DNA of 38,702 bases from Candidatus Methylomirabilis sp. bin48 (GCA_031838355.1 JANGEZ010000081.1:1-38702), one strand, 5' to 3'; positions 1 through 20,775 are shown, counted from the stretch's first letter. A program made the numbers and translations. Notes: generated by a model not told the origin, from the letters alone.

Positions 1-1
1 C

Positions 2-343: not shown

Positions 344-368
344 AGACCAACCTCATGGTAGTGACGAT

Positions 369-813: not shown

Positions 814-1410
814 TTAATACAGAAACAGCCAATCGGCGAGCCGATTCCGAATATCGGGGCGCTGTTTCTCCGCCAGCACGCCCTTCCCTTCGAGGACGAT
901 CTCCGCGTCGGCGACCTGCGTTGACAGGATCGTGTTGTTCGAGGTGATATCCTCGGGGCGGACGACCCCGCTGATGGCCAGGTACTGGGTCTCGTCATTG
1001 GTCTGGATGGCCCTGCGCCCCTCGATGAGCAGGTTGCCACTCGGCAGCGCCTTGACCACCCGGGCCGCCACCTTGGCCGTCACCTCGTCGCTCCTGGTGA
1101 TAGAGCCAGATCCCTTGTGCTCGCTGCCGCCTTCGAAGGCGTTTTTCGTCCTCTCCCCCAATGGCAGACCGAAGAGGCTGGACAGATTGGCGGAGTTGGC
1201 GGACTCCTTCTTGGTGTTGGTTGCAGCCTGGCGATTGAGAGCGCTCGATTCCGTCACCAGGACCGTGACAATGTCGCCCACATGCCGAGCCTTGGCATCG
1301 ATGAAGAGGAACCCATGTCCGATATCCCGCCATAGCGACTCCCCGGAAGACTCCCCAACTAGCGCGAGAATCAGAAGTCCGCTCGCAGAGGCCGCGATCC
1401 ACTTGTTCAT
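814..1410 (-). CDS. flgH: Flagellar L-ring protein FlgH
   Basis: SLW...D.KAR.VGDIVTV.V.E, V..V..LPSGNL.IEG.R....NDE.Q...ISGVVRP.DI...NTI.STQVADA.I are FlgH signatures. There is an N-terminal signal peptide but no lipobox Cys. Confidence 0.9.
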   Translation of the reverse strand: MNKWIAASASGLLILALVGESSGESLWRDIGHGFLFIDAKARHVGDIVTVLVTESSALNRQAATNTKKESANSANLSSLFGLPLGERTKNAFEGGSEHKGSGSITRSDEVTAKVAARVVKALPSGNLLIEGRRAIQTNDETQYLAISGVVRPEDITSNNTILSTQVADAEIVLEGKGVLAEKQRPDIRNRLADWLFLY

Positions 1411-1455
1411 GCCGATTGCGACTCCCTTAGGCCATAGCCAGGGCTCGATGTTGTC

Positions 1456-1770
1456 TCATTTTACGTCCACCTCTCTCTGCACCACCTCGTACCCGCGTCC
1501 GATCATGCAGTCCGCGTAGGCCCTCACATACTCTCGATGAGCGTCGAACATAGCCCGTGTCACAATGACACTTTCCAACATCACGTCCGGGTCGTGCCCA
1601 GCTTCCTTTTCCGCCAACGTCCAACACTCTCCCCGATCGCGGAGCACCTGTTCTGCTGGCTGCTTGTGCTGCGGAGCGACATTCACCTCTGGCCACGTCG
1701 CGGGCCACATCGTAGTACAGCCGGTGAGCGCTAACACTGTCGTGATCGATACTACACTCGAACTCTTCAT
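1456..1770 (-). CDS. Small lipoprotein, unknown function
   Basis: AAGGAGGT RBS before ATG 1770; lipobox LALTGC; paired-Cys pattern DRGEC...YADCMIGRGY. Confidence 0.7.
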   Translation of the reverse strand: MKSSSVVSITTVLALTGCTTMWPATWPEVNVAPQHKQPAEQVLRDRGECWTLAEKEAGHDPDVMLESVIVTRAMFDAHREYVRAYADCMIGRGYEVVQREVDVK

Positions 1771-1834
1771 TCTGTACCTCCTTGTCTTGTGAATGCCCAC
1801 CACAGAGCACACTAGAGAAAGAATGGGAGTCACC

Positions 1835-2188
1835 TTACACCTCGGCCTTGAACAGCAAGCCAAAGAGGTCCCGCATGGCGGCCCCAAGCTTCCTCATCTC
1901 CTCCGACGGGACCTCTCTCAGGACCTCGTCCGTGTCCCGGTCGATGACCTTGATGGTGACGCTGTGAGTCTCGCGGTCGATGACGTAGGTGAGCCCAATA
2001 TTGCTGTGCGCGCTGAGATCCTCCAGCAGCTTCCTCAGATCGGGGAGGGCGACCTCCGCCGCTGTGCTCTCCGATCCGGTCGGCAGTCGCCTGGCTCCTC
2101 CCGGCGGTAACGGGATGCCGGCCTTGCCTCCAGATACTCCTACCCCAGCCTCTATCGACGTGGTCTCGTGACTGATCTCTGCCATCAC
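1835..2188 (-). CDS. flaG: Flagellar protein FlaG
   Basis: C-terminal L.Y.IDRET..V.IKVID.DT.EVLREVPSEEM..L...M....GLLF is the FlaG signature. Confidence 0.88.
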   Translation of the reverse strand: MMAEISHETTSIEAGVGVSGGKAGIPLPPGGARRLPTGSESTAAEVALPDLRKLLEDLSAHSNIGLTYVIDRETHSVTIKVIDRDTDEVLREVPSEEMRKLGAAMRDLFGLLFKAEV

Positions 2189-2222
2189 CTTCCCCCTTTT
2201 TCAGGTTCGCGTTGGCTACAAA

Positions 2223-2705
2223 TTAATCCGGCTGCAACAGCCCGCCATCGATCACCCTGGCGTCTGTCGGCAGACGCGGGACGAGCGAGTGAATCTCAGC
2301 GTCGAGCGTGTCCGCCTTGCTGACGTCCGGGCACTCCCCCGGGCCCATGATCTTCCGGGCGCGCTCCTCGATGCGCGTCATGAGCCCTCGGAGCGTCGCC
2401 AGCGCCTGACGAGCCGAGGGATCGGCCATGACCCACGAGTTCCGCGTCAATAGCTGCAGATGCCACTTCATGGCGACCAGACCCCTCGCGCTTGCGTCCA
2501 CGACATCGACGAGTCGCAGCGAGAGCTGCTCGGTCGTCTGAAGGTGAAGCATCGTCTGGTTGAGATAGTGCGCGAGTTGGCCGAGCTCGCCCTCGGCCTC
2601 GATCGGCACGAAGTGCTGACAGTCCCCCTCGGCCAGGCGCCGAGCCGCCTCGATGGGTGCAGAGAGATCCTGAGCCTGGTCCTGCGTGCGTAGCTGTGCG
2701 TCCAA
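2223..2705 (-). CDS. Degenerate CheZ-like helical protein
   Basis: GELGQLAHYLNQT (HAMP-like), TEQLSLRLVDVVD and IMGPGECPDVS loosely follow the CheZ pattern TE.AT..I.D...IM.A..FQDLT.Q, but the catalytic Gln is absent. GAGGAGGA RBS before a TTG start. Confidence 0.45.
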   Translation of the reverse strand: MDAQLRTQDQAQDLSAPIEAARRLAEGDCQHFVPIEAEGELGQLAHYLNQTMLHLQTTEQLSLRLVDVVDASARGLVAMKWHLQLLTRNSWVMADPSARQALATLRGLMTRIEERARKIMGPGECPDVSKADTLDAEIHSLVPRLPTDARVIDGGLLQPD

Positions 2706-2720
2706 AGCATCCTCCTCTCG

Positions 2721-3404
2721 TTACGTGTGTATCAGTACGTGTACTTCCACCCGGCGATTGCGCGGATTGCCCTGCACCGGGTCGTTGGGTTCCAGAGGCT
2801 GGGTATCCGCCAGCCCCCGGGCTGACAGCCGCGCCGGGGGAAATCGATGGGCCTCTACCAGATACCGGATCACCGCCGTGGCGCGCCCCACCGAGAGGTC
2901 CCAGTTGCTCGGGAAGCTGGGTGACCGGATCGGGAGCGTGTCGGTGTGCCCCTCGACCTCGATGGCGTTCGGGAGAGTGAGCAGGGCAGGGGCGACCGTG
3001 TCCAGGATCCTCTTGGCCTCGCTGGAGAGGGTCGCGTTACCCACGTCAAAGAGGACGGCGCCCTGTAGGCGGAGGACGACCCCCGTGTCGGTTTGCTCGA
3101 TCTCCACGCTGCCCGCCGTGATCTCTTCCTCCAGGTGTGCGCTTAACTGCTGCGCCAGCCTGCCCACCATGTCCGGGAACGGCAGCAGCGTCTCTCCACC
3201 ATCCCCCACTCGTACAATCGGTCGCGGCGACAGCGGGACGCCAAAGGCGACTCTGATCGATGAGACCGTATCGGTGTACTTCTTGGCGTCCGTCTTGGAC
3301 GACGCATACAGGATGATAAAGAAGACCAGGAGCAGGGTGATCATGTCCGCATAGGTCAGCAGCCACCGCAGCCCTCCGCCTCCATCATGCCCGTGTCCTG
3401 CCAT
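2721..3404 (-). CDS. motB: Flagellar stator protein MotB (OmpA-like peptidoglycan-binding domain)
   Basis: WLLTYADMITLLLVFFIILY membrane segment with the conserved Asp; VEGHTD...SNWDLS..RA..V...L...NRRVE OmpA/MotB domain. Confidence 0.93.
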   Translation of the reverse strand: MAGHGHDGGGGLRWLLTYADMITLLLVFFIILYASSKTDAKKYTDTVSSIRVAFGVPLSPRPIVRVGDGGETLLPFPDMVGRLAQQLSAHLEEEITAGSVEIEQTDTGVVLRLQGAVLFDVGNATLSSEAKRILDTVAPALLTLPNAIEVEGHTDTLPIRSPSFPSNWDLSVGRATAVIRYLVEAHRFPPARLSARGLADTQPLEPNDPVQGNPRNRRVEVHVLIHT

Positions 3405-3428
3405 CGTGTCCTCCTCGTCTCTTTGCCC

Positions 3429-3902
3429 TCAGAGCACGTTCCGAATGCCCTCGCTGAATGGGGAGGCCTCGAACGCGTAGCGGAGATGCGAGTCAAGACT
3501 GATGACGGTCATCGCGCCGTCAGGGTGGACCGCCAGCAGCTCGCCGCGAAGGTCTGCGAGCGTTTCCAGAAGGTTGACGTGGAGCTCTGTGACGTTCGTG
3601 AGGTCCACGACGATCGCCTTCTTGCCAGCTCCGCTCATGACGCTGATCTTCCGTCGCATGTCGTGCATTTTCTCAAGGGTCGCCGTGCCTGGCGGCCAGA
3701 CGTAGAGCCCGACGGCGCTCCAGTCGGAGAATTGGAGGGGTTGCTTCTCGCACTTCTGGTGCTCCGCCCCGTTGAGCATGAGCCAGGTCCCCCGAAAGGC
3801 ACACGGGCCCTCATAGACACAGTATCGCCCGCGCGAGTACGGTCTGGCATACATGCAGCGCTCGGTCAGCGTAGCTTCGATGTGGTCGGCCGCGTGTGGC
3901 AT
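3429..3902 (-). CDS. Hypothetical protein with degenerate C-terminal STAS-like (anti-anti-sigma) domain
   Basis: IVVDLTNVTELHVNLLETLADLRGEL...MTVISLDSHLRYAFEASPF follows the STAS pattern but lacks the DSSG phospho-Ser. GAGGAG RBS before ATG 3902. Confidence 0.45.
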   Translation of the reverse strand: MPHAADHIEATLTERCMYARPYSRGRYCVYEGPCAFRGTWLMLNGAEHQKCEKQPLQFSDWSAVGLYVWPPGTATLEKMHDMRRKISVMSGAGKKAIVVDLTNVTELHVNLLETLADLRGELLAVHPDGAMTVISLDSHLRYAFEASPFSEGIRNVL

Positions 3903-3924
3903 GATGTCGCTCCTCCTCGCAGAC

Positions 3925-4899
3925 TCAGCTGCCTGGTGGCCGGAAACCGTAGCGCTCCGGGTTCGCGGCAATGATCGTCATCGCCATAACGGCCGGGACG
4001 TACCGCCTAGTCTCCTCCGGGAGCCGTAGCGCCCAGACATCCCGCGTTCGCTGCCGGTCGATGGCCCGCTGCACGCACTGCTCGCCACAGTTGTACGCGG
4101 CCATAGCGAGGGGCCAGGACCGAAATTGGCGGTGCAGGTCCCTGAGGTAGTGGGCTGCCGCTCGAGTTGATTTGATGGGATGGCGGCGATCGTCGATTCG
4201 CCGTGTCACAGCGAGTCCGTAGCGCCTGGCGGTGGGTTCGATGAACTGCCAGATGCCGACCGCCTGGCGCGGTGACACTGCCTGCGGATTCCAGCCCGAC
4301 TCGATATGGGCCATGTTGACGAGCTCTGGCGGCACCCCATGGGCTGTGAACATCGCCTTGGCGAACGGCAGGTAGCGGCCCGCTCGATCGAAGCCCTGCT
4401 GGATGACGTCGCGTCGATGGCGGGTCATGTGGGCCACGTAGGCCTGCACAGAGCGGTTGACAGGAATGCGCAGGCCTGGAAGGGCGGATGTATCCGGGAG
4501 CGTGGCGTCGTCACGCTCGTCGGGTTCCCCGAGGTCCGGAGGCGGGTCGTCCTGCGCGTCTGCCGGGGCCAGCGCGTCGTAGAGCAGGGAGAGCCGATCG
4601 ACCAGGTCATAGTATTGGTCCGATCGCCGTGGCGATATACGCCCGATGAGAGCCATGGCCTCGTCGAGTTCGATGCGGGCGGCCGTCAGCGCACCGCGAT
4701 GGGCCAGGGCGAGGCCGATGTTCGCGTGGCGTACGGCGGTGTCGAGCGCCTCCTGCGGGCGCTCGGCTGCCCCGGCGATGTGAGCTTCGCTCCCCTTCGG
4801 GTGATCTGCGCTCCCCTTCGCGTGAGCTTCGCTCCACTGCGTGCGGGGGAGCGCGAGCAGAGCGATGACGACGACCACACGACTGGCTCTACGCTGCAT
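3925..4899 (-). CDS. Lytic transglycosylase (SLT domain, MltD-like)
   Basis: IESGWNPQAVS...AVGIWQFI..TA..YGL...D.R..P..ST.AA..YL..L...F.SW.LA.AAYN.G...LP.ET..YVP motifs; signal-like N-terminus from ATG 4899. Confidence 0.92.
   Translation of the reverse strand: MQRRASRVVVVIALLALPRTQWSEAHAKGSADHPKGSEAHIAGAAERPQEALDTAVRHANIGLALAHRGALTAARIELDEAMALIGRISPRRSDQYYDLVDRLSLLYDALAPADAQDDPPPDLGEPDERDDATLPDTSALPGLRIPVNRSVQAYVAHMTRHRRDVIQQGFDRAGRYLPFAKAMFTAHGVPPELVNMAHIESGWNPQAVSPRQAVGIWQFIEPTARRYGLAVTRRIDDRRHPIKSTRAAAHYLRDLHRQFRSWPLAMAAYNCGEQCVQRAIDRQRTRDVWALRLPEETRRYVPAVMAMTIIAANPERYGFRPPGS
4780..4835. repeat. Tandem array of a 21-nt unit (about 2.7 copies) inside the transglycosylase gene
   Basis: gtgagcttcgctccccttcgg / gtgatctgcgctccccttcgc / gtgagcttcgctcc. 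Confidence 0.85.
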
Positions 4900-6301
4900 G
4901 GACAGGGGCCATGGACATGGAAAGTTCTCGACCAATGATCGGCAAAGTGTGGCTCTCTTCTCGATAGTCCCGCAGCTTATTTCGAATCGTCCGTACGCTA
5001 ATGCCAAGCATCTCCGCTGCCTGTTTTTGATGGCCGCCGACCGTGGCGAGCGTCTCCAGAATCAGCTGCTTCTCCATCGCGTAGACGGATCTGCCGGCTG
5101 TTCCATGGGTCTGCTGCGTCTGTGTGATCTCCGATCCCCTTCGGGTGGCGCTGGTTAACTCACTGAGCGTGTCCAGCCTCAGATCGTCAGGTTCTAGACA
5201 CGTCCGGTCGCACAGCAGGATCGACCGATGGAGGCAGCTCTCCAGCTCGCGCACGTTGCCCGGCCACGACCAGTCCTGCAGTCGCCTGATCGCCGCTGGC
5301 GAGATCACTTGTACCGGGCTGCCCGTGGCGCTCGCATAGCGCGTCAGGAAATGCTGGGCGAGTAGCGGGATGTCGACTGTCCGCTCGCGAAGAGGCGGTA
5401 GGGTCAGCGGAACGACCGCCAGCCGGTAGTAGAGATCCTGGCGAAACCGGCCCTGACGCATCTCATCCTTGAGATCTCGATTAGTGGTCGCCACGACGCG
5501 AATATCGATCTCGACCGGCCGGGAGCCGCCAATTCGGTCGATGGTCCGTTCTTGCAGCGCCCGGAGGAGTTTCGCCTGTAGCATCACCGGCATCTCACTG
5601 ATCTCATCGAGCAGCAGCGTACCGCCATCAGCCGCCTCGAACTTCCCCACGCGACGAGTGTTTGCGCCCGTGAAGGCGCCTTTCTCGTAACCGAACAGCT
5701 CACTCTCCAAGAGCGTCTCGGGGATTGCCGCGCAGTTGATCGCAACAAAGGGGCCCTGGCGTCTCCCGCTCCAGAGATGGGCCTGACGGGCGAAGAGTTC
5801 CTTGCCTGTGCCGCTCTCACCCTGGAGCAGGATCGACGCCGAGTCATTCGCCACTCGCTTGAGCGAGTTGAGCAGATTGAGGATCTGGGGGTCACGGCTG
5901 ACGATGGTCGATGCTGGGCCGACGGCTGGAGGAGCCGTCTCAGCCCCCAGCGCCCGCTCCAGGATCGCTTCGACCTGTTTCGCGGAAAACGGCTTCATGA
6001 GGAAGTCAAAGGCTCCCGCCTTCATCGCCTCGACGGCCGTCTGCACCGATCCGTACGCCGTGATCAAGACAACACGGGGAGGAGGCTCGATCGCCGTGAT
6101 CTGCTTGAGGAGCTCCAGCCCATCCATCCTGGGCATTCGGATATCCGCGAAGATCAGCGGGGTAGGAGATCGCTTGAATTGCAGCAGCGCATCCTCTCCA
6201 TCACAGGCCATGATGCTGTCAAACCCCTTCCGCCGGATCGTCTCCGAGAGGGCGATCCGCACCAATGGCTCATCGTCCACGACCAGGACACGAGGCTTCA
6301 T
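4889..6301 (-). CDS. Sigma54-dependent response regulator, FleR/FlrC/FlgR-like (REC-AAA-HTH)
   Basis: Intact REC (VVDDE, ADIRMP), Walker A GESGTGKE, ESELFGYEKGAFTGA, LLDEI, DLYYRL; the HTH GISVRTIRNKL is typical of flagellar enhancer-binding proteins. Confidence 0.92.
   Translation of the reverse strand: MKPRVLVVDDEPLVRIALSETIRRKGFDSIMACDGEDALLQFKRSPTPLIFADIRMPRMDGLELLKQITAIEPPPRVVLITAYGSVQTAVEAMKAGAFDFLMKPFSAKQVEAILERALGAETAPPAVGPASTIVSRDPQILNLLNSLKRVANDSASILLQGESGTGKELFARQAHLWSGRRQGPFVAINCAAIPETLLESELFGYEKGAFTGANTRRVGKFEAADGGTLLLDEISEMPVMLQAKLLRALQERTIDRIGGSRPVEIDIRVVATTNRDLKDEMRQGRFRQDLYYRLAVVPLTLPPLRERTVDIPLLAQHFLTRYASATGSPVQVISPAAIRRLQDWSWPGNVRELESCLHRSILLCDRTCLEPDDLRLDTLSELTSATRRGSEITQTQQTHGTAGRSVYAMEKQLILETLATVGGHQKQAAEMLGISVRTIRNKLRDYREESHTLPIIGRELSMSMAPVHAA
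5125..5147. repeat. 23-nt motif identical to 6357-6379 and related to the 21-nt unit at 4780-4835
   Basis: tgatctccgatccccttcgggtg. Confidence 0.85.
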
Positions 6302-6303
6302 CG

Positions 6304-8070
6304 CTAAAACTCCTCATAGGCATCGGCCGTCTGGACGACCGCCACGCGAGAGCCGATGATCTCCGATCCCCTTCGGGTGCTGTTGTGCTGACCCCGAACT
6401 GACACCGGATGGCGCGATAATCTTCCAGATGCTGTCGCTGTCGCGAGACGTGGCGCCTGCCGCGCCTGTATACGGGGCCGGTCTGCCGCCATGCGAGCCA
6501 GCCGCTGCGGCTTTTGCTCCAGGGTGAACTGCCCGACGAGGGCCGACAGCTCCTCCGCCTGGGCGGCAAGGGCCTGGGCGGTGGAGGAGAGCCCCTCAGT
6601 GTGGGCGGCGTTCTGTTGGGTGATGCTGTCCATCTGAGTCGCAGCCGCATTCATCTGCTCGATCCCCTGGGCCTGCTCCCGGGAGGCCGCACTGATCTCG
6701 GCGATCAGGTCGGCCACCTGCTTGACGGAGGCGACGATCTCAGCCAGGATCTCGCCGGACTTCGTGACCTGATGCGCCCCATCCTCGACTGTTGCTACGG
6801 AGTTCGTGATGAGGGCTTTGATCTCCTTCGAGGCGGCAGCCGACCGCTGGGCCAGGGCCCGGACTTCCGAAGCGACGACCGCAAAGCCGCGTCCCTGCTC
6901 CCCGGCTCTGGCGGCTTCCACGGCGGCATTCAGGGCCAGGATGTTGATCTGGAAAGCGATCTCGTCAACCATCGTGATGATCTCGCTGATCTGCTTGGAG
7001 GACTGAGTGATCGCCTCCATGGAGGAGATCGCAGCGTTCACCACCGCATCGCCTTTCTCTGCCTCGCCCCGCGCTGAGATCGCGAGCTGGTTCGCCAGCC
7101 GGGCGTGCTCCGCGTTCTGCTTCACGGTGCAGGTCATCTGCTCCAGTGAGGCCGCCGTCTCCTCGAGGGAGGCCGCCTGCTCCTGAGCGCCGGAGGAGAG
7201 CTGCTCGCTGCCAGCGGCCAGTTGCTCGGACGCGCTCGCAGTCTGGTCGGCAGCTTGCTTCACTTGGGCGATGAGGCTGTGGAGCGTGTCCATGACGCAG
7301 TTGAACCAGCGGGCCAACTCGCCCACTTCGTCCGTGGTCGTCGCGTCCAGACGCTGCGTAAGATCGCCCTCGCCCTGGGCCATGTCCCGGAGGAGCGCCA
7401 CGGCCTGGCGGAGCGGCCGCACCGTGAGGGTCGTGATGAGATAGCCCAGAGCCAGGCTGACAGCGAGGCCGACAACGAGGAAAGCCAGCATCACGGCACG
7501 GGAGTGGGCGTAGGTTGCCTGGGCCGCGTCGTAGCGCTCTCTGGCATGTGCGTCCTTGAGGTCGATCATCGCGTTGACCGCGGCCACGGCAGCCTGATAG
7601 CGCACTCGCCCTACATTGAGCACGAGCGTGTAGGCCATCTCCTTCTTGCCCTGACTGCTTGCGGGAAGGAACTCGGTCGTGAAGTAGGTCTGATAGGCGG
7701 CTACCACGCCTCTGAGCTGGCCCAGCGCCTCCCGCTCGTCCGTTGGCAGTTCTTCCTTCTCGACCCGTGCGATCCGCCCCTCAATGTCGCCGAAGCGGGT
7801 CCGAATCTCTGTCGCGAGTTGCGTCATGTTGTCGGTATTGCGCTCAATGGCGTGCTGGAGGATGAACCCACGAATCTGATAGATCCGTCCCCGAGCCTCG
7901 GCCAGCACCTTAAGGCCGAGCAGATGGCGCTCATAGATCTCCAGCGACCCCGCGTTGATCTGACGCATACTGCTGATGCCGACATAGCCGATGCCAGTCA
8001 TGCTCGCCCCGAGCGCGGCACACAAGATGATGAGCTTCGTTGCCATCGCGCGATTCCGGAACCACTGCAT
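6304..8070 (-). CDS. Methyl-accepting chemotaxis protein (periplasmic four-helix sensor, HAMP, signalling domain)
   Basis: Two membrane helices, HAMP GDLTQRL...DEVGELA, hairpin tip [41 protein letters not shown]-terminal pentapeptide AYEEF. ATG 8070 has a GGAGGG RBS. Confidence 0.95.
6357..6379. repeat. 23-nt motif identical to 5125-5147
   Basis: tgatctccgatccccttcgggtg. Confidence 0.85.
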
Positions 8071-8143
8071 GGTCTTTCCCTCCAGTGTGATGAACCTGCT
8101 GTCTCTGACGCGAGTGACACTTGTGAGAAGACGCGTCACGTAA

Positions 8144-8875
8144 TCAGGTGATTGCCCCAAGGGCCGTACTGGAGCGAGCGATCGACAGCCATCCCCATTG
8201 ATGGTGATGACTGGAGGACTCTCTACGCCCCTGTATTAGACTCTCGACGAGTCTGCGTACCGCGATGCGAGTCGCACGCTCAAACGACCATCCCGCCGTA
8301 CCGGCGCTTCCCGGAGCGATCTTTCCGGCCCACAGCACAACCCCAGACGGCAGGGCGATGAGTCTGGCCTCCACCCCAACTCTTGTCACCCTGGTCGTTC
8401 CCTCCCAATGCTGATCAACGCCGTACACATTGACCACCAGGGCCCGTCTCACCCCCAGGGCCGTCCAATCGACTGTTGATCGGTTCGACTCTGTGTCTTG
8501 GATAGACACCCCTTCCTGGAGCCACGATAGCGACGTATCCCATCCACGAGCGCGAGCCTCCTCCCGCACCCAGTCCAGACCTCGGATGTCCATGCCGGCG
8601 TGCGACAGCTCAAGGATGAACAATCTGGCGACCGCCTCAACTAACGGCCGATCCTCCGTAGGCGCTCGCGCCGGGATCACCACGGTTCGGCCTTCCCTGG
8701 TGATGACGACCGGCTGGAGCGTGGGGGGAGCAGCCGGACCCGCGCACCCGCCGACCAGCAGACCCAGGCTGACGAACCCCACCAGCACCAGCTTACGCAG
8801 GTCGTCCCGCTGGAGGCTGGCTCCCATCCGGAGGATACGAGTCATCACGTCACATCTCCTGGATAGGTGACTCAT
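8144..8875 (-). CDS. Hypothetical lipoprotein
   Basis: Hydrophobic stretch plus lipobox LVGGC; [19 protein letters not shown] beta-strand pattern. ATG 8875 overlaps the fliH stop (ATGA); the true start may be further downstream. Confidence 0.6.
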
Positions 8876-9516
8876 GCGTTCTGGTTTCTCCCGAGGAGGC
8901 GGGCCGCCTCCTGGAGTTGGCTCTCCAGGCGCACGTCGACGAGACCGGTCTCGACCTCTATCAGACATCCGCCGAAGGAGATCGCGGGATCCGAGACGAG
9001 CCGCGCCGACTCCAGCGAGTCCAGCAAGTCCCCTCGATGCTCCGCCAGCAGTTCGTAGTCGCCAGGATTGACCCGGATGGCCATGACCTTTCGGCTTCCA
9101 GCGGCCTCCAGGGCGGTCTTGACAATGAGGACCATCGCGTCCGGACGCGCCTCGATCTCAGACTGCACCACCTGCTTGGCGACCGCAATGGCGAGCTCGA
9201 TCAACTCGCCCTCTGTTTGTGTGGCGACGGCCTGGTGAGCTGCCGCGACCTGCCGGCAGGCCTCCCGCAGCAGGGCATCGAGCTGCTCGATCTGACGCCG
9301 CATGTCGCCGATCGCTTCGGTGTGGCCCCTTGTGAAGCCCTCCCGATGGGCCTCTCGCTCGATCTGCTGCGTGCTCTCACGGGCAGATAGCACAATCGCC
9401 TCGGCCTCACGCTCAGCGGCCAGGATCGACTCATAGCCCGATACGGCCGCATGGGGGAGCTCCTCAAAGGAGGCTGACGCCCAGCCGTCCTCTCCGTTCG
9501 TGACGATTTTAGTCAA
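8872..9516 (-). CDS. fliH: Flagellar assembly protein FliH
   Basis: AHREGFTRG (AxxxGxxxG), LIELAIAVAKQVV, IRVNPGD, DPAISFGGCLIE.ETG.VD. TTG start at 9516 with a GGAGGAG RBS, overlapping the fliG stop. Confidence 0.88.
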   Translation of the reverse strand: MTKIVTNGEDGWASASFEELPHAAVSGYESILAAEREAEAIVLSARESTQQIEREAHREGFTRGHTEAIGDMRRQIEQLDALLREACRQVAAAHQAVATQTEGELIELAIAVAKQVVQSEIEARPDAMVLIVKTALEAAGSRKVMAIRVNPGDYELLAEHRGDLLDSLESARLVSDPAISFGGCLIEVETGLVDVRLESQLQEAARLLGRNQNA

Positions 9517-10528
9517 TGATCTCCTCCTGCGCGCCGCCACCGCGCCCCTGGACGATGATCTCGCCAGCCTCCTCGAGGCGGCGCACGATGCCGACGATCT
9601 TCTGCTGTGCCGACTCCACATCCCGGAGCTTGACCGGCCCCAGATAGCTGATTTCCTCTTTGAGTAGGGCGCCCGCCCGCTCAGACATATTCGTGAAGAT
9701 CTTCTCCGCCACCTCCGAGTCTATCGCCTTCATCGCAAGGGCCAACTCCTTCTGATCCACCTCCTTGAGGACGCGCTGGATGCCACGGTCATCCACCCGC
9801 ACCACATCATCGAAGGTGAACATCAGTTTGCGGATCTCGTCCGCCATAGAGGGATCGCTCTCCTGTATGGCCTGGAACACGCCGCGTTCACTGTTCCGAT
9901 CCATGGCGTTCAGAATCTCCGCCGCCCGCGGGATCCCGCCGCTGATGGAGACCTCCTGGTTGACCACGGAAGCGAGGCGGTGGTTCAGAATCTGCTCGAT
10001 CTCGCCGATCACCTCGGGGTGTGTCTTGTCCATGTTGGCGATCCGCATGACCACGTCCGCTCTGATCTCCTGCGGCAGGCCTACCAGCACGCTGGCCGAC
10101 GCCTTCGGATCCAGGTGGGAGAGGACAACCGCGATGGTTTGCGGGTGCTCCTGCCGGACTGAGTCAAGCAGGAACCGGGGATCCACCGGTTTGAGGGCGG
10201 TGAAAAAGCTGGCGCCCCTCAGGCCTTGCAGGCGCCCGATCATCTCGGTCGCCCTCGTTTTGCCGAGGGCCTTTTCGAGGACCTCCTGCGCGTAGCGGAT
10301 CCCGCCACTGGACAGCGACGCCTGCGCGTGGGCCATCTGCCGGAACTCATCGATCACCGCGGTGGACGCATTCACAGAGACGGTCTTCATCCGGGTGAGC
10401 TCGGCGGTGATGGTCTCGATCTCCTCGTCGTCGAGATGCTTGAAGATCTGGGCGGCGGGCTCAACCCCAAGCGTCAGCAGCAGCACGGCGGCCTTCTGGG
10501 GACCAGTGAGCGTCTCGATGGTCGTCAT
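9509..10528 (-). CDS. fliG: Flagellar motor switch protein FliG
   Basis: LTGPQKAAVLLL, GGIRYA, EHPQ motif, GG linker, MFTFDD motif, NMSERA...GPVKLRDVE.AQ. Full length. Confidence 0.97.
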   Translation of the reverse strand: MTTIETLTGPQKAAVLLLTLGVEPAAQIFKHLDDEEIETITAELTRMKTVSVNASTAVIDEFRQMAHAQASLSSGGIRYAQEVLEKALGKTRATEMIGRLQGLRGASFFTALKPVDPRFLLDSVRQEHPQTIAVVLSHLDPKASASVLVGLPQEIRADVVMRIANMDKTHPEVIGEIEQILNHRLASVVNQEVSISGGIPRAAEILNAMDRNSERGVFQAIQESDPSMADEIRKLMFTFDDVVRVDDRGIQRVLKEVDQKELALAMKAIDSEVAEKIFTNMSERAGALLKEEISYLGPVKLRDVESAQQKIVGIVRRLEEAGEIIVQGRGGGAQEEIID

Positions 10529-11370
10529 GATCCTCTGTGCACACGCCGAGACGGTGCCCACGCGGCGCGCTCGTCTCCAATCAGATCGTCCCGCGTGAGT
10601 CGTCTCCGCTGGAGCCTCTCCAGCATCCGTGTCAGGCCGGAGGTGTGAATCTGCGACACACGCCCTTCGGACACCCCCATTCGCACGCTGATGGGCTTGA
10701 TGCTGACACCCTGCACGTAGTACAGTGTCAGCACCAATCGCTCCTGAGGCGGGAGTGTGCCAATCATGGCCCTCAGTACCCTCGCGTGCTCACACACGAC
10801 GGCCTCGCTGAACGGATCTCGACACGCCCTGTCTGCCGGCTCTGTCGTCCAGCACTCGTCATCACGCAGATCCTCCGTCGGCTTCTCCGGCACCCCCTCA
10901 CTGAGTTCATCAAGCGAGAGGAAGACTGGAGGGACGATCTGACTCGCACGTCGGCAGTAGGCGGCCAGCGACATCCCAAATGCACACGCCAGTTCCTCAT
11001 CGGTCGGCTCTCGTCTCAGACGCGACTGCAATGAGGCTCTGGCGCACGTGATCTTCTGCGCCTGCGCCCGGAACCAGCGGGGCATGAAATCCTGCCTCCT
11101 CAGATCATCGAGCATTGCCCCACGAATCCGATACTGCGCATACGTGGCGAACTCCGCCAGCTGTTCCGGGTCGTAGCTCTCGACGGCACTGAGCAGACCG
11201 ACCGCGCCGGCACTTTCCAGATCGCCCAACTCGACACACGAGGGCAGTTGTAGCGATAGCCGCCCGGCGATCTTCCGCACGAGGACGATGTTGGCCGTGA
11301 TCAGCAGGTCCCTCAACCGTGGATCCCTCGTCCGTCGGTAGGCGTTCCAATCTTCTCGCGTGATCTCCAT
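10525..11370 (-). CDS. fliA: RNA polymerase sigma28 factor (FliA/WhiG family)
   Basis: DLESAG.VGL..AV..YDP....F.TYA..RIRGAMLD.LR..D..PR; region 3 L.REPTDEELA; region 4 LP.QERLVL.LYY...MGVSEGRVSQIH. Confidence 0.93.
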   Translation of the reverse strand: MEITREDWNAYRRTRDPRLRDLLITANIVLVRKIAGRLSLQLPSCVELGDLESAGAVGLLSAVESYDPEQLAEFATYAQYRIRGAMLDDLRRQDFMPRWFRAQAQKITCARASLQSRLRREPTDEELACAFGMSLAAYCRRASQIVPPVFLSLDELSEGVPEKPTEDLRDDECWTTEPADRACRDPFSEAVVCEHARVLRAMIGTLPPQERLVLTLYYVQGVSIKPISVRMGVSEGRVSQIHTSGLTRMLERLQRRRLTRDDLIGDERAAWAPSRRVHRGS

Positions 11371-11377
11371 GTGCTCT

Positions 11378-11566
11378 CTACACCTTCACGTCAACAATCG
11401 ACCCCGGCTCGTCCGGCAGACGTTGCGGCTGGAGTGGTTTCATGGTGTCGAGAGCCTTCGTGCGCACGCGGATCGCATTGAGCGCCGCGCGCTCAGCAGG
11501 ACTCAGGAGGTGTCTGAGCCCTGCGGCCTGAGTGGACTGGGAATGATCGACTGGCTGGATTGACAT
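11378..11566 (-). CDS. Small protein ending in GSIVDVKV (YjfB-like, motility-associated C-terminus)
   Basis: AAGGAG RBS; 62 aa; ends 7 nt before fliA; G..(I/V)D..V terminus. Confidence 0.5.
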   Translation of the reverse strand: MSIQPVDHSQSTQAAGLRHLLSPAERAALNAIRVRTKALDTMKPLQPQRLPDEPGSIVDVKV

Positions 11567-11628
11567 TGTCGGCTCCTTGTTGCCAAGCCGCTACCAACGG
11601 TACGTAGCGTGATTGATGGCGATGATGA

Positions 11629-12795
11629 TCATGCCGGCGCGTGTGCCGCGTCGATGTCTTCTTGACGCAGGGAGCCGAGACCGGTGCACTCGTCGCGCCG
11701 CGTGGCGCACGCCTGCTTGATCGCCACGCGCAACTCGTGGGGGTTGAAGGGCACCTGGAGGACGACGGTGCTGTCGGTGGCCACGAGGTCCGAGTCGGTG
11801 GTGATAAGGATGATCGGGAGGTCCGGCTGGCGCTGCCTCAGGCACTCCTCGAGCTGATCGGTGATGACGAGGTCGCACGCCTTGAGCGCCAGGGCTTCGA
11901 TGCTGAGGCCGTCCGTGACGGCGGCCACGCCGGTTGGGCGATGGCCTATCGCCTCAAGCAGCTCACACAGCAGCTCGCGCATGGGTGTGTTGCGGTGAAT
12001 GACGAGGATTGACTTCGACGAGCAGAGGCACGGGGACGGGGTGAGAGACACGTGAGGTGACGCAGGCGGCGCCTGGCCTACCGCGGCGGGGAAGCGCATG
12101 GTGACTGTTGTGCCCCGCCCTGGCTCGCTGTCAATGCGCAGCGTGCCCCCGTGGGCGTCGACGATCGATGTGACAATGGCGAGCCCCAGGCCGCTGCCGT
12201 TGGCCTTCGTGGTGAAGCCGTCCTTGCAGCAGTGGGCGAGGACCTCGGGGGGCATGCCCGGACCCGCATCCGACACGGCCAGGTCCACCCAGGAGTCGGT
12301 CGAGGAGGCCGACAGGTGGATACGATCACCCGGTCTTACGGCGGCGAGGGCATTGAGGAGGAGGTTGATGAGCGCCTGGCACAGATGCTGGCGATCACCG
12401 AGGATGACCCGGGCTGGAAGCACTTCGAGCTCTAGGCTCACAGGGTTATCGCGCACCGTGGCTTCGATGGCGGTCCACGCCTCGAGGACGAGCCCCATCG
12501 GTGGTACTGGATGGCGACTCGGAAGCCGGCTGCCACCGTTCAGAGACTGCCGCAGGGCGCTCAGGATGGCGCTCGCGTGCACCGTGGCGTGTGTGACGGC
12601 TTGGGCGCACTCGGACATCGGCCCGTTCACGCCGTCGAGGAGCGCGAGGCGCTGCGCATGGTTCGACACGATCGTCAGGGCGTTCGCGATTTCATGCGCG
12701 GCCCGGCGAGCGACATGAACGGAGGGGCAGTCATGAGGGGATGAGCCATGGGATGAGGGTGTGCTCGTGGTGTGTACGACATCGTTGTGCATCAT
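11629..12795 (-). CDS. Cytoplasmic sensor-less histidine kinase with degenerate C-terminal receiver domain
   Basis: H-box AAHEIANAL, N-box QALINLLLNA, D.GPGM, FTTK..GSGLGL, G.GT. The REC keeps DLVITD but lacks the N-terminal acidic pair and is shortened. Confidence 0.85.
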   Translation of the reverse strand: MMHNDVVHTTSTPSSHGSSPHDCPSVHVARRAAHEIANALTIVSNHAQRLALLDGVNGPMSECAQAVTHATVHASAILSALRQSLNGGSRLPSRHPVPPMGLVLEAWTAIEATVRDNPVSLELEVLPARVILGDRQHLCQALINLLLNALAAVRPGDRIHLSASSTDSWVDLAVSDAGPGMPPEVLAHCCKDGFTTKANGSGLGLAIVTSIVDAHGGTLRIDSEPGRGTTVTMRFPAAVGQAPPASPHVSLTPSPCLCSSKSILVIHRNTPMRELLCELLEAIGHRPTGVAAVTDGLSIEALALKACDLVITDQLEECLRQRQPDLPIILITTDSDLVATDSTVVLQVPFNPHELRVAIKQACATRRDECTGLGSLRQEDIDAAHAPA

Positions 12796-12828: not shown

Positions 12829-13293
12829 TCACACAGCAGCGGCGCCGGGCTGCACTGGACTCTTGTCCTGTGCGCTCGGCCGACGCAGCCACGCCAGGGC
12901 GCGATCGAGTACTGTGGGCTCACGGAGGGAGTCCGGTTCCTCAGGCTGAGAAGGCCAGATCGTCCCCCCGCGCTCTGATTCGCGAATGCACATGACCCGC
13001 CTTGCGGACACGATGAGCCTTTGTCTGCCAGCGCCGTCCTTGCCGATCCAGCGGTCTTGGTGGAGGCTGCCGTCAACCGCGACGATATCGCCCTTGCGGA
13101 GCAAGGCGCAGGAATCCGCGACGGCGTCGAAGCCTGTGACGTCAATGAAGGAGGTGATGGACTCGCCAGCCAGGGTGCGGCGTGACACCGCCACCCGGAA
13201 GCTCACGACAGGCCGGCCCTTGTGGGTATGGCGGCGCTCCGGCTCCGTGCTGATGCGACCGGAGAGCGTGACGCGATTCACAGAGAGAGACAT
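12829..13293 (-). CDS. ssb: Single-stranded DNA-binding protein
   Basis: VNRVTLSGRI..EPE.R.T..G..V..F.VAV.R...FIDV..F...LRKG..V.V.GSL....W OB-fold; no acidic C-terminal tail. Confidence 0.9.
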   Translation of the reverse strand: MSLSVNRVTLSGRISTEPERRHTHKGRPVVSFRVAVSRRTLAGESITSFIDVTGFDAVADSCALLRKGDIVAVDGSLHQDRWIGKDGAGRQRLIVSARRVMCIRESERGGTIWPSQPEEPDSLREPTVLDRALAWLRRPSAQDKSPVQPGAAAV

Positions 13294-17941: not shown

Positions 17942-19291
17942 TCATGAGACCAGCCGGAGAGCGGCGCCGTTGCCGTCACGGAGCTTCACGCGAAGCGTCT
18001 GGCGTGAGATGCCCAGGAGGTGGGCCGCCTGGGTCTTGTTGCCGTGGACTCGGGCTAGGACGCGATCGATATGGACCCGCTCTGCTGATGCCAGCGATTG
18101 ACACGACTCCGGGGTGGACATGATGGTATGCGTGGTCCGAAGGGCGTCGGGCAGGTGCTCAAGGCAGACCTCAGCCTGTCCTTGGGGGAGGACAATCAGC
18201 ATCGCCTCCGCAAGATGCTTCAACTCGCGCACGTTACCCGGCCAGGGGTAGCGTTGCAGCGCGTCAATGGCCTGGCGAGACATCTGCGGTGCCGGCACGC
18301 CAGCGGCGACAGCCGCCTGGCTGAGGAAGCGCTGCATCAGGGGTAGGATCTCCGCTGGTCGCTCGCGGAGCGGAGGCACCGTGAGGGGCACGGACCGCAG
18401 CCGGTAGTACAGATCGGCCCGGAAGCGGCCCCCCGCAACGTCTTGCTCAAGGGGGCGATTGGTGGCCGCGACGATCCGCACGTTGACCTGTGTTTCGCGG
18501 GTCGCTCCCACCCGGCGGAATGTCCCTGTTTCCAGGAATCGGAGCAGCTTGGCTTGGAGGGAGAGCGGCATATCGCCGATCTCGTCGAGGAAGAGTGTGC
18601 CTCGGTCGGCGAGCTCACAGAGGCCCGACTTCGCAGCCTTGGCGTCCGTAAACGCCCCTCGCTCGTGGCCGAACAGCTCGCTCTCGAAGAGATGATCCGA
18701 CAGGGCGGCGGCGTTGAGAGGAATGAACGGGTGGGCACAGCGCGGCGAGCCGTCATGCAGGGCCTTCGCCACCAGTTCCTTCCCGGTCCCGGTTTCACCT
18801 TGGATGAGGATGGTCTTGATGAGCGGGGACTTGGCGATCCGGACGATCATCTGCCACAGGCTGGCAGTCTGGGCGCTGACAATTACCTCTGGTGGAATCT
18901 TGGCATCGCGATCGGGCAGCGCGTGGACGTCGCCGGTGTGGGGCTGCCCCAGCGCCTGACGGACAGCCGCCAGCAGATCGGCCTCGTCGCACGGCCAGGC
19001 GAGGTAGTCTCTCGCCCCGGCTTTCATCGCTTCGACGGCGCTCCGATGCTCGGGATAGCGTGTGAGGATGATCACAGGAGTCGGCGAGGGCAGACGCTTC
19101 AGGAGCTCGATGCCGTTCAGGTCGGGAAGGATGAGCTCGGTGATCATAAGGTCGATCTGGGTGTTGCCGCAGAGTCCGAGGGCCGCGGCGGCCGTAGTGA
19201 CGGTGTGGACAAGGTGGCCTGAGTGCATGAGGAGAGTCCGCAATGGCTCGTGGGTGGACGCGTCGTCGAAGACAATCAGCATGCGGGCCAT
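17942..19291 (-). CDS. Sigma54-dependent NtrC/AtoC-type regulator with Asp-to-Glu at the receiver phosphoacceptor position
   Basis: REC DLMITELILPD, Walker A GETGTGKE, GAFTDA, FLDEIG, DLYYRL, Fis-type HTH GNKTQAAHLLGISRQTL. Confidence 0.92.
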   Translation of the reverse strand: MARMLIVFDDASTHEPLRTLLMHSGHLVHTVTTAAAALGLCGNTQIDLMITELILPDLNGIELLKRLPSPTPVIILTRYPEHRSAVEAMKAGARDYLAWPCDEADLLAAVRQALGQPHTGDVHALPDRDAKIPPEVIVSAQTASLWQMIVRIAKSPLIKTILIQGETGTGKELVAKALHDGSPRCAHPFIPLNAAALSDHLFESELFGHERGAFTDAKAAKSGLCELADRGTLFLDEIGDMPLSLQAKLLRFLETGTFRRVGATRETQVNVRIVAATNRPLEQDVAGGRFRADLYYRLRSVPLTVPPLRERPAEILPLMQRFLSQAAVAAGVPAPQMSRQAIDALQRYPWPGNVRELKHLAEAMLIVLPQGQAEVCLEHLPDALRTTHTIMSTPESCQSLASAERVHIDRVLARVHGNKTQAAHLLGISRQTLRVKLRDGNGAALRLVS

Positions 19292-19527
19292 CAGTGAGCG
19301 GCCTCCGGGATGCCGATCGGCCAATTTCTGGTGCGAGGGCGCGAGGCGGGGAGGGGGCTGAGGAGCGTCAGGAGCGGAATGCGCTGCTCTACGCGGCCAT
19401 ACCTGCGGCGGATTGAGACAGAGGCGTCGGGATGGAGGGTGACGATCACTGGGATGGGCTCGCCCTGCTCAGGCTGCAGCTGAAAAGCGCGTGTCACAGG
19501 TCGTGTGCTGGGTTGCCTAGTGGACAT
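19291..19527 (-). CDS. Small hypothetical protein
   Basis: 78 aa; start and stop overlap both neighbours by 1 nt (TAATG / TGATG); GGAGG RBS. Confidence 0.6.
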   Translation of the reverse strand: MSTRQPSTRPVTRAFQLQPEQGEPIPVIVTLHPDASVSIRRRYGRVEQRIPLLTLLSPLPASRPRTRNWPIGIPEAAH

Positions 19528-20096
19528 TAGACCTCCCGGGAATTGAGGCGAAACTGGCGCGAGAAAAAAAACGAGAGCACATCAGAAGACCACTCCCGGA
19601 GGGGCGGTAGGACGATGTGATTGCCTTTTAGACGGTAATAGAGACCAGTATGGAGCTGGCCGGCTTTTCGCCACTCCTCGACAGACCGGCTGCTTGTGGC
19701 TACCACACGTAGATCCACCCGAGTTTCCCGGATGGCTCCCGTACGCCGGTAGCACCCTTCTTCGATTGCGCCTAACAACTTGGCTTGGCAGGACAATGGC
19801 AAGCCTTCGATCTCCTCGATGAACAGCGTGCCCCCGTCGGCCATCCGGCATAGGCCTGGCGCGGGACTACAAGCTCGGCCGAACAGCTTTTGATGGACGA
19901 TCGCCTCAGGGCGGGTGACCGCGCGCAACGCGACGAACGGATACGTGTGTCTGAGCGATGTCGCATGGATCGCGTAGGCCACGAGTTCTGTGTTGATACC
20001 AGGCTCAGCGCAGATCACCATGGCCTTGATTTGGCTGGCGGCCATCAGTTTTATCCGGCTGATGGCGTTGTCTGGGGTGACGTGTACACGCACCAT
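19527..20096 (-). CDS. Stand-alone, catalytically degenerate sigma54-activator AAA domain
   Basis: Keeps ADGGTLF.EEI..LPL..QAKLL and LYYRL...LPPLRE, but Walker A reads AEPGINTE, the GAFTGA loop is absent, and there is no REC or HTH. Confidence 0.75.
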   Translation of the reverse strand: MVRVHVTPDNAISRIKLMAASQIKAMVICAEPGINTELVAYAIHATSLRHTYPFVALRAVTRPEAIVHQKLFGRACSPAPGLCRMADGGTLFIEEIEGLPLSCQAKLLGAIEEGCYRRTGAIRETRVDLRVVATSSRSVEEWRKAGQLHTGLYYRLKGNHIVLPPLREWSSDVLSFFFSRQFRLNSREV

Positions 20097-20637: not shown

Positions 20638-20775
20638 CCTCTGCATAAGAGGTCGTGTGCATTGTGTGCGGCGTCTCAGCGCATCCTCACTACATGTACG
20701 ACACGAGGCCGACGACTGCCCGGCGTGTGGTCGCAACTACGACAGTTCCGGCGGCGGTCCGGGTGGCTCCTGGGC
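20638..20775. repeat. Copy A of a diverged about 135 bp direct repeat (copy B at 29282-29413)
   Basis: The 40-nt block 20736-20775 matches 29374-29413 at 38/40; the block 20645-20666 matches 29289-29310 at 21/22. Confidence 0.9.

What the first reader, a model, noticed from the sequence alone, without database searches (positions are those of the whole stretch)
814..12795. Mobile-element 'flagellar collage' operon: isolated genes from many flagellar/chemotaxis operons, partners missing
Seen: one co-oriented run of kinase, small protein, fliA, fliG, fliH, lipoprotein, MCP, FleR-like regulator, transglycosylase, STAS-like, motB, CheZ-like, flaG, lipoprotein and flgH. Established: these genes normally sit in different operons with obligate partners, namely fliF (for fliG), fliI (fliH), motA (motB), flgI (flgH), fliC/fliD (flaG), flgM (fliA) and cheA/cheW/cheY (MCP, CheZ). 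None of these partners or their remnants is visible here. The genes remain full length, with strong RBSs and tight junctions at non-native joins (fliA-fliG ATGA overlap, fliH-lipoprotein ATGA, MCP-regulator 2 nt gap, regulator-transglycosylase overlap), which does not look like random decay of a flagellar cluster. Inference: this cannot build a flagellum and may be an undescribed element-borne module that rewires or sabotages host motility (extra sigma28 and activator plus titrating or dominant-negative rotor, stator, export and L-ring subunits), or a repurposed envelope complex.
Basis: partly seen in the sequence, partly recalled or inferred. Interest (0 to 1): 0.9.

Follow-up and report, generated by a model that had tools for sequence, protein, structure and literature searches.

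The report
Mobile element's edited flagellar gene kit
A mobile DNA element in a methane-oxidising bacterium carries a reshuffled and trimmed set of copies of its host's own flagellum and chemotaxis genes, kept under selection in several samples; the set cannot build a flagellum alone and likely works on the host's flagellum, probably switching swimming on and retuning it outside normal control.

Summary
The 15-gene run lies on a comM-integrated mobilizable element (IncQ-like RepA/RepC with iterons, MobH relaxase, TraD) in Ca. Methylomirabilis. The missing partners are absent from the window but present in the host's own flagellar cluster. Eleven run genes are paralogs of host flagellar/chemotaxis genes in a shuffled order. 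It is not an assembly chimera: contigs from two other studies bridge 10 of 14 junctions. It is not simple decay: dN/dS is 0.19-0.48 against host copies and 0.35 for FliG between element copies. New here is a pattern of editing. FliA has lost a membrane/lipoprotein tail that host FliA carries and has remodelled sigma3/sigma4. CheZ lost its catalytic motif, the STAS protein its receiver, the kinase its sensor. A further activator upstream has Glu at its phospho-site. FliG, FliH, MotB, FlgH and FlaG stay whole. The element has no host-type sigma28 or sigma54 promoter, so its regulators most likely act on host genes. Best reading: override and retune host motility (0.45); brake (0.25). No function was tested. 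The scan's earlier notes hold nothing like it.

The parts
814..1410 (-). flgH, L-ring protein, full length, 85% aa to host copy
1456..1770 (-). small lipoprotein (lipo1), 42% over 55 aa to a non-flagellar host lipoprotein; apparently absent from the copy in run X4
   Evidence: joint 1425-1829
1835..2185 (-). flaG, full length, 61-65% to host copies
2223..2705 (-). HAMP + truncated pseudo-CheZ: host FQDxxxQ motif and C-terminal tail lost in 4 of 4 element versions; fastest-evolving gene
2721..3404 (-). motB, paralog of the host's second stator MotB; TM Asp, plug and OmpA domain intact; motA deleted from between STAS and motB
3429..3902 (-). STAS-fold protein = C-terminal 151 aa of a 404-aa host receiver-STAS protein; new RBS and start inside the ancestral coding DNA
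3925..4899 (-). lytic transglycosylase, MltD-like without the C-terminal repeats; N-terminus encoded by DNA aligning to the host flgB sigma54 promoter region
4889..6301 (-). FleR-like sigma54 activator; phospho-Asp, GAFTGA and recognition helix kept; 74-79% to host copies
6304..8070 (-). MCP with four-helix sensor, HAMP and signalling domain
8872..9516 (-). fliH, whole except a 15-aa linker deletion
9509..10528 (-). fliG, intact, 79-84% to host copies
10525..11370 (-). FliA*, soluble sigma28 ending just before the host membrane helix; sigma2 conserved, sigma3/sigma4 remodelled
11378..11566 (-). 62-aa orphan protein, conserved in other element copies, no match in the other 19 genus genomes
11612..11639 (-). 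28-nt fossil of flhA
11629..12795 (-). histidine kinase with only about 30 residues before the H-box (no sensor) and a degenerate receiver
12829..13293 (-). SSB (element backbone)
17942..19291 (-). second sigma54 activator, 44% to a host flagellar-cluster activator; Glu at the phospho-Asp position, receiver Lys lost, AAA motifs and recognition helix kept
19527..20096 (-). AAA-only fragment of a sigma54 activator, Walker A and GAFTxA loop degenerate
20737..22314 (-). TraD-like coupling protein
23020..24348 (-). MobH/TraI_2-like relaxase (below the NCBIfam MobH cut-off)
24367..24412 (.). 18-bp inverted repeat upstream of the relaxase, oriT or operator candidate (inference)
24649..25632 (-). ParM-like actin
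27201..27264 (.). three 20-bp repeats at 22-bp spacing, IncQ-type iterons (type recalled)
27238..28092 (-). RepC
28085..29002 (-). RepA-like helicase (AAA_25)
29632..30327 (-). 5' part of comM, broken at its Walker A; element junction at about 29675

Best explanation
The run is cargo of a comM-integrated mobilizable element, built from captured and reshuffled copies of Methylomirabilis flagellar and chemotaxis genes and kept under selection, and it likely acts in trans on the host's own flagellar system, probably forcing flagellar genes on outside host control while adding its own motor and signalling parts. Shown: element context, host origin, shuffling, domain trimming, selection, recurrence, and no host-type sigma28 or sigma54 promoter on the element. 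Inferred steps: (1) The co-oriented genes are co-transcribed from an upstream element promoter. (2) The Asp-to-Glu activator, and the sensorless kinase with FleR, drive the host's sigma54 promoters (flgB, flgF, fliM, cheY-fleS) without the normal signal. (3) FliA*, freed of the membrane tether and altered in sigma3/sigma4 where FlgM binds (recalled), drives late genes before or without the host checkpoint. (4) Intact FliG, FliH, MotB, FlgH, FlaG and the transglycosylase co-assemble with host FliF/FliM, FliI, MotA and FlgI and change output, export or filament length. (5) The MCP, the dead CheZ and the receiver-less STAS protein shift the chemotactic bias. The likely gain is dispersal of carriers, or contact with a helper element or recipients.
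For: Host partners are all present elsewhere. Element genes group with the G000/G011 lineage in most gene trees, and the two element MotBs form one clade inside the Methylomirabilis set. Element-branch dN/dS is 0.19-0.48 for 9 genes; FliG between copies is 0.35, p=0.003. New RBS/start sites arose inside ancestral coding DNA for STAS and lipo2. FliA has a stem of about 1.0 changes per column, then tips of 0.06-0.08, with changes concentrated in sigma3/sigma4 (49 of 175 host-invariant columns), and still passes TIGR02479. All 20 non-element relatives are 429-466 aa against 281 and 261 for the two element copies. Both activators keep the host recognition helix. No sigma54 or sigma28 site on the element reaches the lowest host training score. 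FliG residues 232-328 are unchanged between copies and MotB keeps its Asp; a pure poison would not need these.
Against: There are no expression or function data. The direction of effect is not shown: the Asp-to-Glu activator has also lost its receiver Lys and could be inactive, and FliA* could be a sink for core polymerase. FlaG is an export antagonist (PMC11536152) and the FliH2FliI complex inhibits ATPase ring formation (PMC7911332), which points to braking. dN/dS is 2-3 times the host value for most genes, CheZ* may be near neutral (22% aa difference between copies), and both lipoproteins vary between copies, so parts may be passengers. Why extra structural parts are needed if host genes are merely switched on is not explained. 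The link between element and a flagellated host rests on binning in G000 (68% complete); its closest relative G002 (99% complete) has no fliG or fliC.
Confidence: 0.45

Rival explanations
1. Brake or decoy kit: partner-less halves (FliG, FliH, MotB, FlgH) titrate host partners, FlaG limits flagellin export, dead CheZ and the dead AAA fragment poison host oligomers, and FliA* soaks up core polymerase. Carriers would become sessile, which favours mating or escape from flagellum-binding phages.
For: Each structural gene is one half of an obligate pair. CheZ* and the 19527-20096 fragment have lost catalytic motifs. FlaG is an antagonist (PMC11536152, passages read). FliH2FliI inhibits FliI ring formation (PMC7911332, passages read). 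Plasmid RsmQ switches its host from motile to sessile (PMC9928087, abstract read).
Against: One repressor would suffice, yet 15-17 genes are kept. The FliG torque domain and the MotB Asp are conserved. FleR is fully intact and an MCP with a sensor domain is retained.
Confidence: 0.25
2. Condensing relic: a large captured flagellar island is being whittled down under weak selection and the run has no coherent joint function.
For: Fossils of flhA and of the flgB promoter, and loss of motA in place. Raised dN/dS. Fast change in CheZ* and MotB between copies. Variable lipoproteins.
Against: The order needs about six relocations relative to the host cluster, all co-oriented. New ribosome sites and starts arose. 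Nine genes (2,136 codons) stay open in a second copy where 9-18 stops are expected if neutral (biased, since only intact proteins are seen). FliG dN/dS is 0.35 between copies.
Confidence: 0.1
3. Repurposed envelope or transfer module: FlgH, the CsgG/PelC-fold lipoprotein, the transglycosylase and MotB form a channel, or adapt the host basal body, for the element's own DNA export, standing in for a mating-pair system.
For: Relaxase, coupling protein and SSB lie in the same gene train; no VirB4-family hit in G000; lipo2 has a fold shared with ring-forming outer-membrane lipoproteins; the transglycosylase is among the best conserved genes (3% aa difference).
Against: G000 is 68% complete and the element's other end is missing. 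A related relaxase/TraD element in G015 has no flagellar cargo in the 40 kb examined. It does not explain the MCP, CheZ*, FlaG or the sigma factor.
Confidence: 0.08
4. Orthogonal regulators: FliA* and the activators were co-opted to control the element's own genes through new promoters, as SetCD and AcaCD were from FlhDC, and the structural genes ride along.
For: Burst of change in sigma4, then conservation. Precedent in SXT and IncA/C elements (PMC4542580, passages read).
Against: No sigma54 site on the element, and the few good sigma28 -10 boxes lie in coding DNA. The activator recognition helices match the host's. The structural genes are under selection too.
Confidence: 0.1

Closest known systems
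Plasmid-borne host-regulator homologues that change behaviour, e.g. RsmQ of pQBR103 (PMC9928087, abstract read)
   Same: A mobile element carries homologues of host regulators and is inferred to alter motility in trans.
   Different: RsmQ is one translational regulator. Here there are 15-17 genes spanning three transcription tiers, chemotaxis and structural motor, export and L-ring subunits, with inputs trimmed off; the direction is untested.
SetCD/AcaCD, FlhDC-like activators of SXT/R391 ICEs and IncA/C plasmids (PMC4542580, passages read)
   Same: Flagellar-type regulators on a conjugation-related element.
   Different: Those are distant relatives that drive the element's own transfer genes. 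These are recent captures (44-85% aa to host copies) with no host-type target promoters on the element.
Whole flagellar clusters on plasmids, megaplasmids and chromids (205 PLSDB records with FliG; e.g. Komagataeibacter p92689)
   Same: Flagellar genes on a mobile replicon.
   Different: The one record opened has fliF, fliN, fliP, fliI, motA, rod genes and flagellin beside fliG. Here all such partners are missing and the order is shuffled.
Partial flagellar gene sets in genomes (bioRxiv 10.1101/2024.12.05.626484, passages read)
   Same: An incomplete set including a rotor protein without filament.
   Different: Those are genome-level remnants or losses. This is a second, element-borne set beside a full host cluster, under selection.
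comM-disrupting islands such as AbaR (PMC11441513, abstract read) and integrative mobilizable elements generally
   Same: Insertion breaks comM; relaxase and coupling protein without a visible mating-pair system.
   Different: IncQ-like RepA/RepC/iteron plus MobH backbone rather than Tn7-like; cargo is motility, not resistance; integrase not seen.
Phage auxiliary metabolic genes (recalled)
   Same: Selected single subunits of a host machine carried without the rest of the pathway.
   Different: The carrier is a mobilizable island and the target is the flagellar system.

Membership tests
Self-sufficient flagellar gene cluster on a mobile replicon | MS ring, export gate, ATPase, rod/hook, flagellin and complete stator present | tested here: not met
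   None of fliF, fliI, flhA, fliM, motA, flgI, flgB/E/F/G/K, fliC, fliD hits the window; DNA beyond the left contig end not seen.
Decaying flagellar relic | Collinear deletion of an ancestral cluster | tested here: not met
   Order against the G011 cluster jumps 84 kb > 63 > 85 > MCP > 58.6 > 4 > 48.6 > 11.9 kb; local deletions do occur (motA, flhA fossil).
Decaying flagellar relic | dN/dS near 1, stops and frameshifts | tested here: not met
   0.19-0.48 on the element branch for 9 genes; CheZ* unresolved; FliG 0.35 between copies.
Integrative mobilizable element | Relaxase and coupling protein | tested here: met
   TraI_2 and TrwB/TraG-D Pfam hits above cut-off; NCBIfam MobH and TraD hits below cut-off.
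Integrative mobilizable element | Site-specific insertion in a host gene | tested here: met
   comM homology ends at about 29675; of 18 relatives' loci, 15 show a 507-510 aa ComM and 3 are shorter, at least 2 of them cut by the locus or contig end.
Integrative mobilizable element | Integrase and second attachment site | tested here: inconclusive
   No serine recombinase, no comM 3' half and only a chromosomal-context tyrosine recombinase in the 68%-complete G000.
Integrative mobilizable element | No own mating-pair system | tested here: inconclusive
   None in the window and no PF03135 hit in G000, but the element's far end is missing.
MGE-borne regulator homologue that manipulates host behaviour (RsmQ-like kind) | Homologue of a host regulator carried on the element | tested here: met
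   FliA, FleR, second activator, kinase, CheZ.
MGE-borne regulator homologue that manipulates host behaviour (RsmQ-like kind) | Demonstrated change of host gene expression or motility | not testable with these tools
   No RNA holder listed; needs experiments.
SetCD/AcaCD-type co-opted activators | FlhC/FlhD-like proteins | tested here: not met
   No such Pfam hit among 48 window proteins.
SetCD/AcaCD-type co-opted activators | Target promoters on the element | tested here: inconclusive
   No host-type sigma54 or sigma28 sites; a novel FliA* motif cannot be excluded.
CheZ phosphatase | Catalytic DxxxQ motif and C-terminal CheY-binding tail (features recalled) | tested here: not met
   Present in host copies (Pfam CheZ); lost in 4 of 4 element versions.
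FliA/WhiG sigma28 | Regions 2, 3, 4 and family score | tested here: met
   TIGR02479 193.7 against cut-off 189.6; below the PRK06986 cut-off.

The most novel reading that the evidence does not exclude
An 'auxiliary motility kit': a mobile element that has taken apart its host's flagellar island, cut the sensory leashes off every regulatory tier (untethered FlgM-evading sigma28, phosphorylation-independent activator, sensorless kinase, dead CheZ) and supplies its own rotor, stator, export and L-ring subunits that build into the host motor, so that the element decides when and how the cell swims.
Probability: 0.35. Interest if true: 0.92.

Novelty: new variant of a known kind. Interest (0 to 1): 0.8.

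Why it matters
The cases I read of mobile elements steering motility use single regulators, or carry a whole flagellar system. This element carries selected halves of obligate complexes plus regulators with their input domains removed. If it works as inferred, it is the motility counterpart of phage auxiliary genes and a natural experiment on which flagellar parts are enough to seize control of the motor. [quoted passage not shown] It exposes a host feature not found in my searches, a sigma28 fused to a membrane helix and lipoprotein, whose tether the element has cut. The host genus performs nitrite-dependent methane oxidation (recalled), so control of its swimming bears on where that process happens.

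Tried and rejected
Chimeric assembly: rejected. Element genes are only 68-88% nt identical to the host copies and other studies' contigs bridge 10 of 14 junctions.

Partners just left of the window: an HTH gene and a Fic-like 3' end (label recalled) lie there. The partners sit on C28, C46, C66, C122, C90, C199 and C264 beside the host's own copies. The roughly 27 kb extra of a 65,531-bp assembly of the same element could not be read.

Searches for further whole copies: viral contigs with FliG, none. Metagenome contigs with lipo2, 2 loci, both chromosomal type. Genome contigs with a TraD alignment, 1 related element. 251 class/phylum genomes with lipo2, the 62-aa protein and RepC, no second element seen (the more distant lipo2 loci were not inspected for gene context). 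Phage FliG hits (5) were not opened.

No RNA holder listed, which is no evidence on expression. No Rfam match, no tRNA, no sigma70 excess. The 62-aa protein has one credible outside relative (P0097); its Atlas hits are unnamed.

Complex prediction of the 62-aa protein with FliA* was not available, so binding is untested. MCP dropped from dN/dS because of a frame error; SLT, kinase, small protein and lipo1 have no host flagellar orthologs to test; CheZ* dS saturated.

Literature: 10 searches found no description of such a module; three returned nothing, and three papers on FlgM-insensitive FliA were not held, so that point is recalled. Supplements were not consulted.


Full report
**Setting.** The window is all of contig C81 of a 68%-complete genome bin, G000. 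A same-genus record is titled Ca. Methylomirabilis. Bases 29.7-38.7 kb are ordinary chromosome (ffh to rplS, rnhB, comM) and match genus relatives like other G000 contigs: 93-96% to G002 and 87% to G011, against 91-96% and mostly 84-89% for two other contigs (a third contig gave no match). comM stops matching relatives at about 29675, inside its Walker A. Left of that point the main ORFs run on the minus strand: RepA-like helicase, RepC with three 22-bp-period repeats, ParM-like actin, TraI_2/MobH-like relaxase, TraD-like coupling protein, two sigma54-activator derivatives, a PrcB lipoprotein, a subtilase, SSB and then the 15-gene run. This is an integrative mobilizable element; its integrase and far end are not in the bin.

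**Observation.** Of 20 partner and neighbour proteins taken from the complete genome G005, none hits the window beyond generic domains. Eighteen have orthologs of 63-89% identity elsewhere in G000; flgG gave only a weak paralog hit and flgF none. The host therefore has a nearly complete flagellar and chemotaxis system in the bin. FliG and flagellin occur in the same 5 of 20 genus genomes, 3 of the 8 high-quality ones.

**Origin.** Ten run genes have a paralog inside the host flagellar cluster (flgH 85%, fliG 81%, fleR 77%, motB 76%, lipo2 72%, fliH 65%, flaG 61%, fliA 60%, STAS 59%, cheZ 33% aa). The MCP matches host chemotaxis MCPs at 57-67%. SLT and lipo1 derive from non-flagellar host genes, the kinase has only 27-43% relatives, and the 62-aa protein has no genus match outside the element. 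In 7 of 10 nucleotide gene trees the element copy groups with G000 and G011 at support 0.99-1.0; flaG, cheZ and STAS are the weaker or discordant cases, with STAS in that group at 0.989. The order is not collinear with the host cluster, yet fossils show capture of larger blocks: 28 nt of flhA at 11612-11639 (E 0.006-0.07 in four genomes; best reversed-control hit 0.25), the degenerate flgB sigma54 promoter now encoding the SLT N-terminus, and loss of motA from between STAS and motB.

**It is real and recurs.** Runs X1 and X2 hold 97% of its words but may be the source. X3 and X4 (groundwater, one study) and X5 (lake water, another study) hold copies about 89-96% identical. Among the listed pieces (the table was cut), their contigs bridge 10 of 14 junctions. 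Not bridged are fliH-lipo2, fleR-SLT, flaG-lipo1 and lipo1-flgH; X4 joins flaG to the flgH leader without lipo1, and X5 has no cover over lipo2. One 33,953-bp ENA contig carries FlaG, CheZ*, MotB, STAS, SLT, FleR, FliG, FliA, the small protein, SSB, PrcB, TraD, ParM and RepA; FliH, lipo2, MCP, kinase, lipo1 and FlgH from it did not appear in the 90% clusters. Its FliG has all 20 amino-acid changes seen in X5, so I count it as the same strain. In X1 the element lies at 46-50x while pieces matching G000's chromosomal paralogs (12 of 12 letters checked) lie at 244-337x, and an 11,136-bp piece ends at 29701, beside the comM junction. I infer the element is in a minority of cells; mis-binning of the flagellar contigs is the alternative.

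**Selection.** Against five host genomes the element branch has dN/dS 0.19-0.48 for nine genes, with upper bootstrap bounds 0.32-0.75, versus 0.09-0.28 between hosts; CheZ* was unresolved. Part of that branch may predate capture, so I also compared copies. Forty of 45 tabulated FliG differences in X5 give 18.5 synonymous and 21.5 non-synonymous changes, dN/dS 0.35, p=0.003. Twelve of the 20 amino-acid changes lie in residues 30-60, and the full proteins are identical in 232-328. A rough figure for 1836-4778 is 0.25-0.39. Nine genes stay open where 9-18 stops would be expected, a test biased towards intact genes. Amino-acid differences between copies range from 3% (SLT) to 13% (MotB) and 22% (CheZ*). 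Selection is real but looser than in the host.

**Editing.** Host FliA is one ORF of 455-459 aa: sigma28, a hydrophobic helix ending in a lipobox-like LLVGGC, and a domain predicted to fold like GNA1162/PelC/CsgG lipoproteins. All 20 non-element hits are 429-466 aa (search limited to 154-492 aa). The element splits it: FliA* ends just before the helix, fliG-fliH is inserted, and the lipoprotein restarts from a new RBS and ATG. FliA* differs at 49 of 175 host-invariant columns, nearly all beyond residue 95; both copies share the remodelled region 4, on a stem of about 1.0 against tips of 0.06-0.08, whereas the MotB stem is 0.09. CheZ* lacks the FQDxxxQ motif and the C-terminal tail in 4 of 4 versions. 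STAS lacks its receiver, SLT its C-terminal half, and the kinase a sensor. The activator at 17942-19291 has Glu for the phospho-Asp and no receiver Lys, seen in this copy only, and 19527-20096 is an AAA fragment without working motifs. FliG, MotB, FlgH, FlaG, FleR and FliH (15-aa linker deletion) are whole.

**Targets.** Host clusters have clear sigma54 and sigma28 promoters. Matrices built from 14 and 12 sites that I picked find no sigma54 site above 9 bits on the element (training 18.6-26.3) and a best sigma28 score of 13.7 (training 16.3-22.1). With recognition helices like the host's, the activators most likely act on the chromosome.

**Mechanism.** Action in trans on the host flagellar system is the shared core of my two leading readings (about 0.7 together). 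I favour override and retuning (0.45), because the regulators have lost inputs rather than outputs and the motor parts keep their working residues. That Asp-to-Glu can lock such activators on, that FlgM binds sigma4, and the CheZ catalytic motif are recalled, not checked. A brake (0.25) is supported by the half-pair pattern, the two dead proteins, and papers on FlaG (PMC11536152) and FliH2FliI (PMC7911332), of which I read passages. Relic, own-regulon and envelope-channel readings get about 0.1 each. Nothing here was shown to be expressed or to bind.

**Comparison and verdict.** The backbone is a known kind; breaking comM is a known strategy (PMC11441513, abstract read). The cargo fails the tests for a mobile whole flagellar cluster and for a decaying relic. 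It works like RsmQ-type host manipulation (PMC9928087, abstract read) but on a much larger and partly structural scale, and unlike SetCD/AcaCD (PMC4542580, passages read) it has no evident targets on the element. Ten literature searches and four look-ups in earlier scan notes found no such module, which is limited evidence. Verdict: real, selected, undescribed in what I could search, function inferred; interest 0.8.

Noticed in passing
G000:C66:5419-6786; L038:2103-3473; L041-L045; P0021-P0040: Chromosomal Methylomirabilis FliA is fused in frame to a membrane helix, lipobox-like motif and PelC/CsgG-fold lipoprotein domain, a candidate pro-sigma28 released by cleavage (inference).
   Followed up: partly
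window 14269-17807: A 1004-aa subtilase with InlB-type repeats and a PrcB-like lipoprotein sit between the backbone and the flagellar run; the DNA is conserved in X3-X5. Role unknown; it could process surface or flagellar proteins.
   Followed up: no
   Followed up: yes
G015:C1:57000-77000 (L029, L030, L073): A related relaxase/TraD element (40% and 60% aa) with different cargo; G015 also has the fliA-lipoprotein fusion but no fliG or fliC hit at 87% completeness.
   Followed up: partly
G005:C1 about 1562890-1563562: The second motB of G005 appears frameshifted near codon 198, while a full-length protein that the tree places at zero distance exists (P0076); possibly an assembly error.
   Followed up: no
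G002: The closest relative (91-96% nt, 99% complete) has no fliG or flagellin hit; flagella are patchy in the genus (5 of 20).
   Followed up: partly
window 314-718: In X1 a second 2,964-bp contig at 11.7x matches the HTH region at 98%, suggesting another related element in that sample.
   Followed up: no
L104:2046-2204, L102:13708-13888 and 14376-14600: Short repeats of about 150-230 bp occur in dozens of copies across G002 and other genus genomes, probably MITE-like.
   Followed up: no
window 36283-37438: Chromosomal HTH antitoxin-like gene and an MNT-HEPN pair beside the ffh operon.
   Followed up: no
window 1-343: 3' end of a plus-strand gene resembling a Fic-family protein (label recalled), cut by the contig end.
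   Followed up: no
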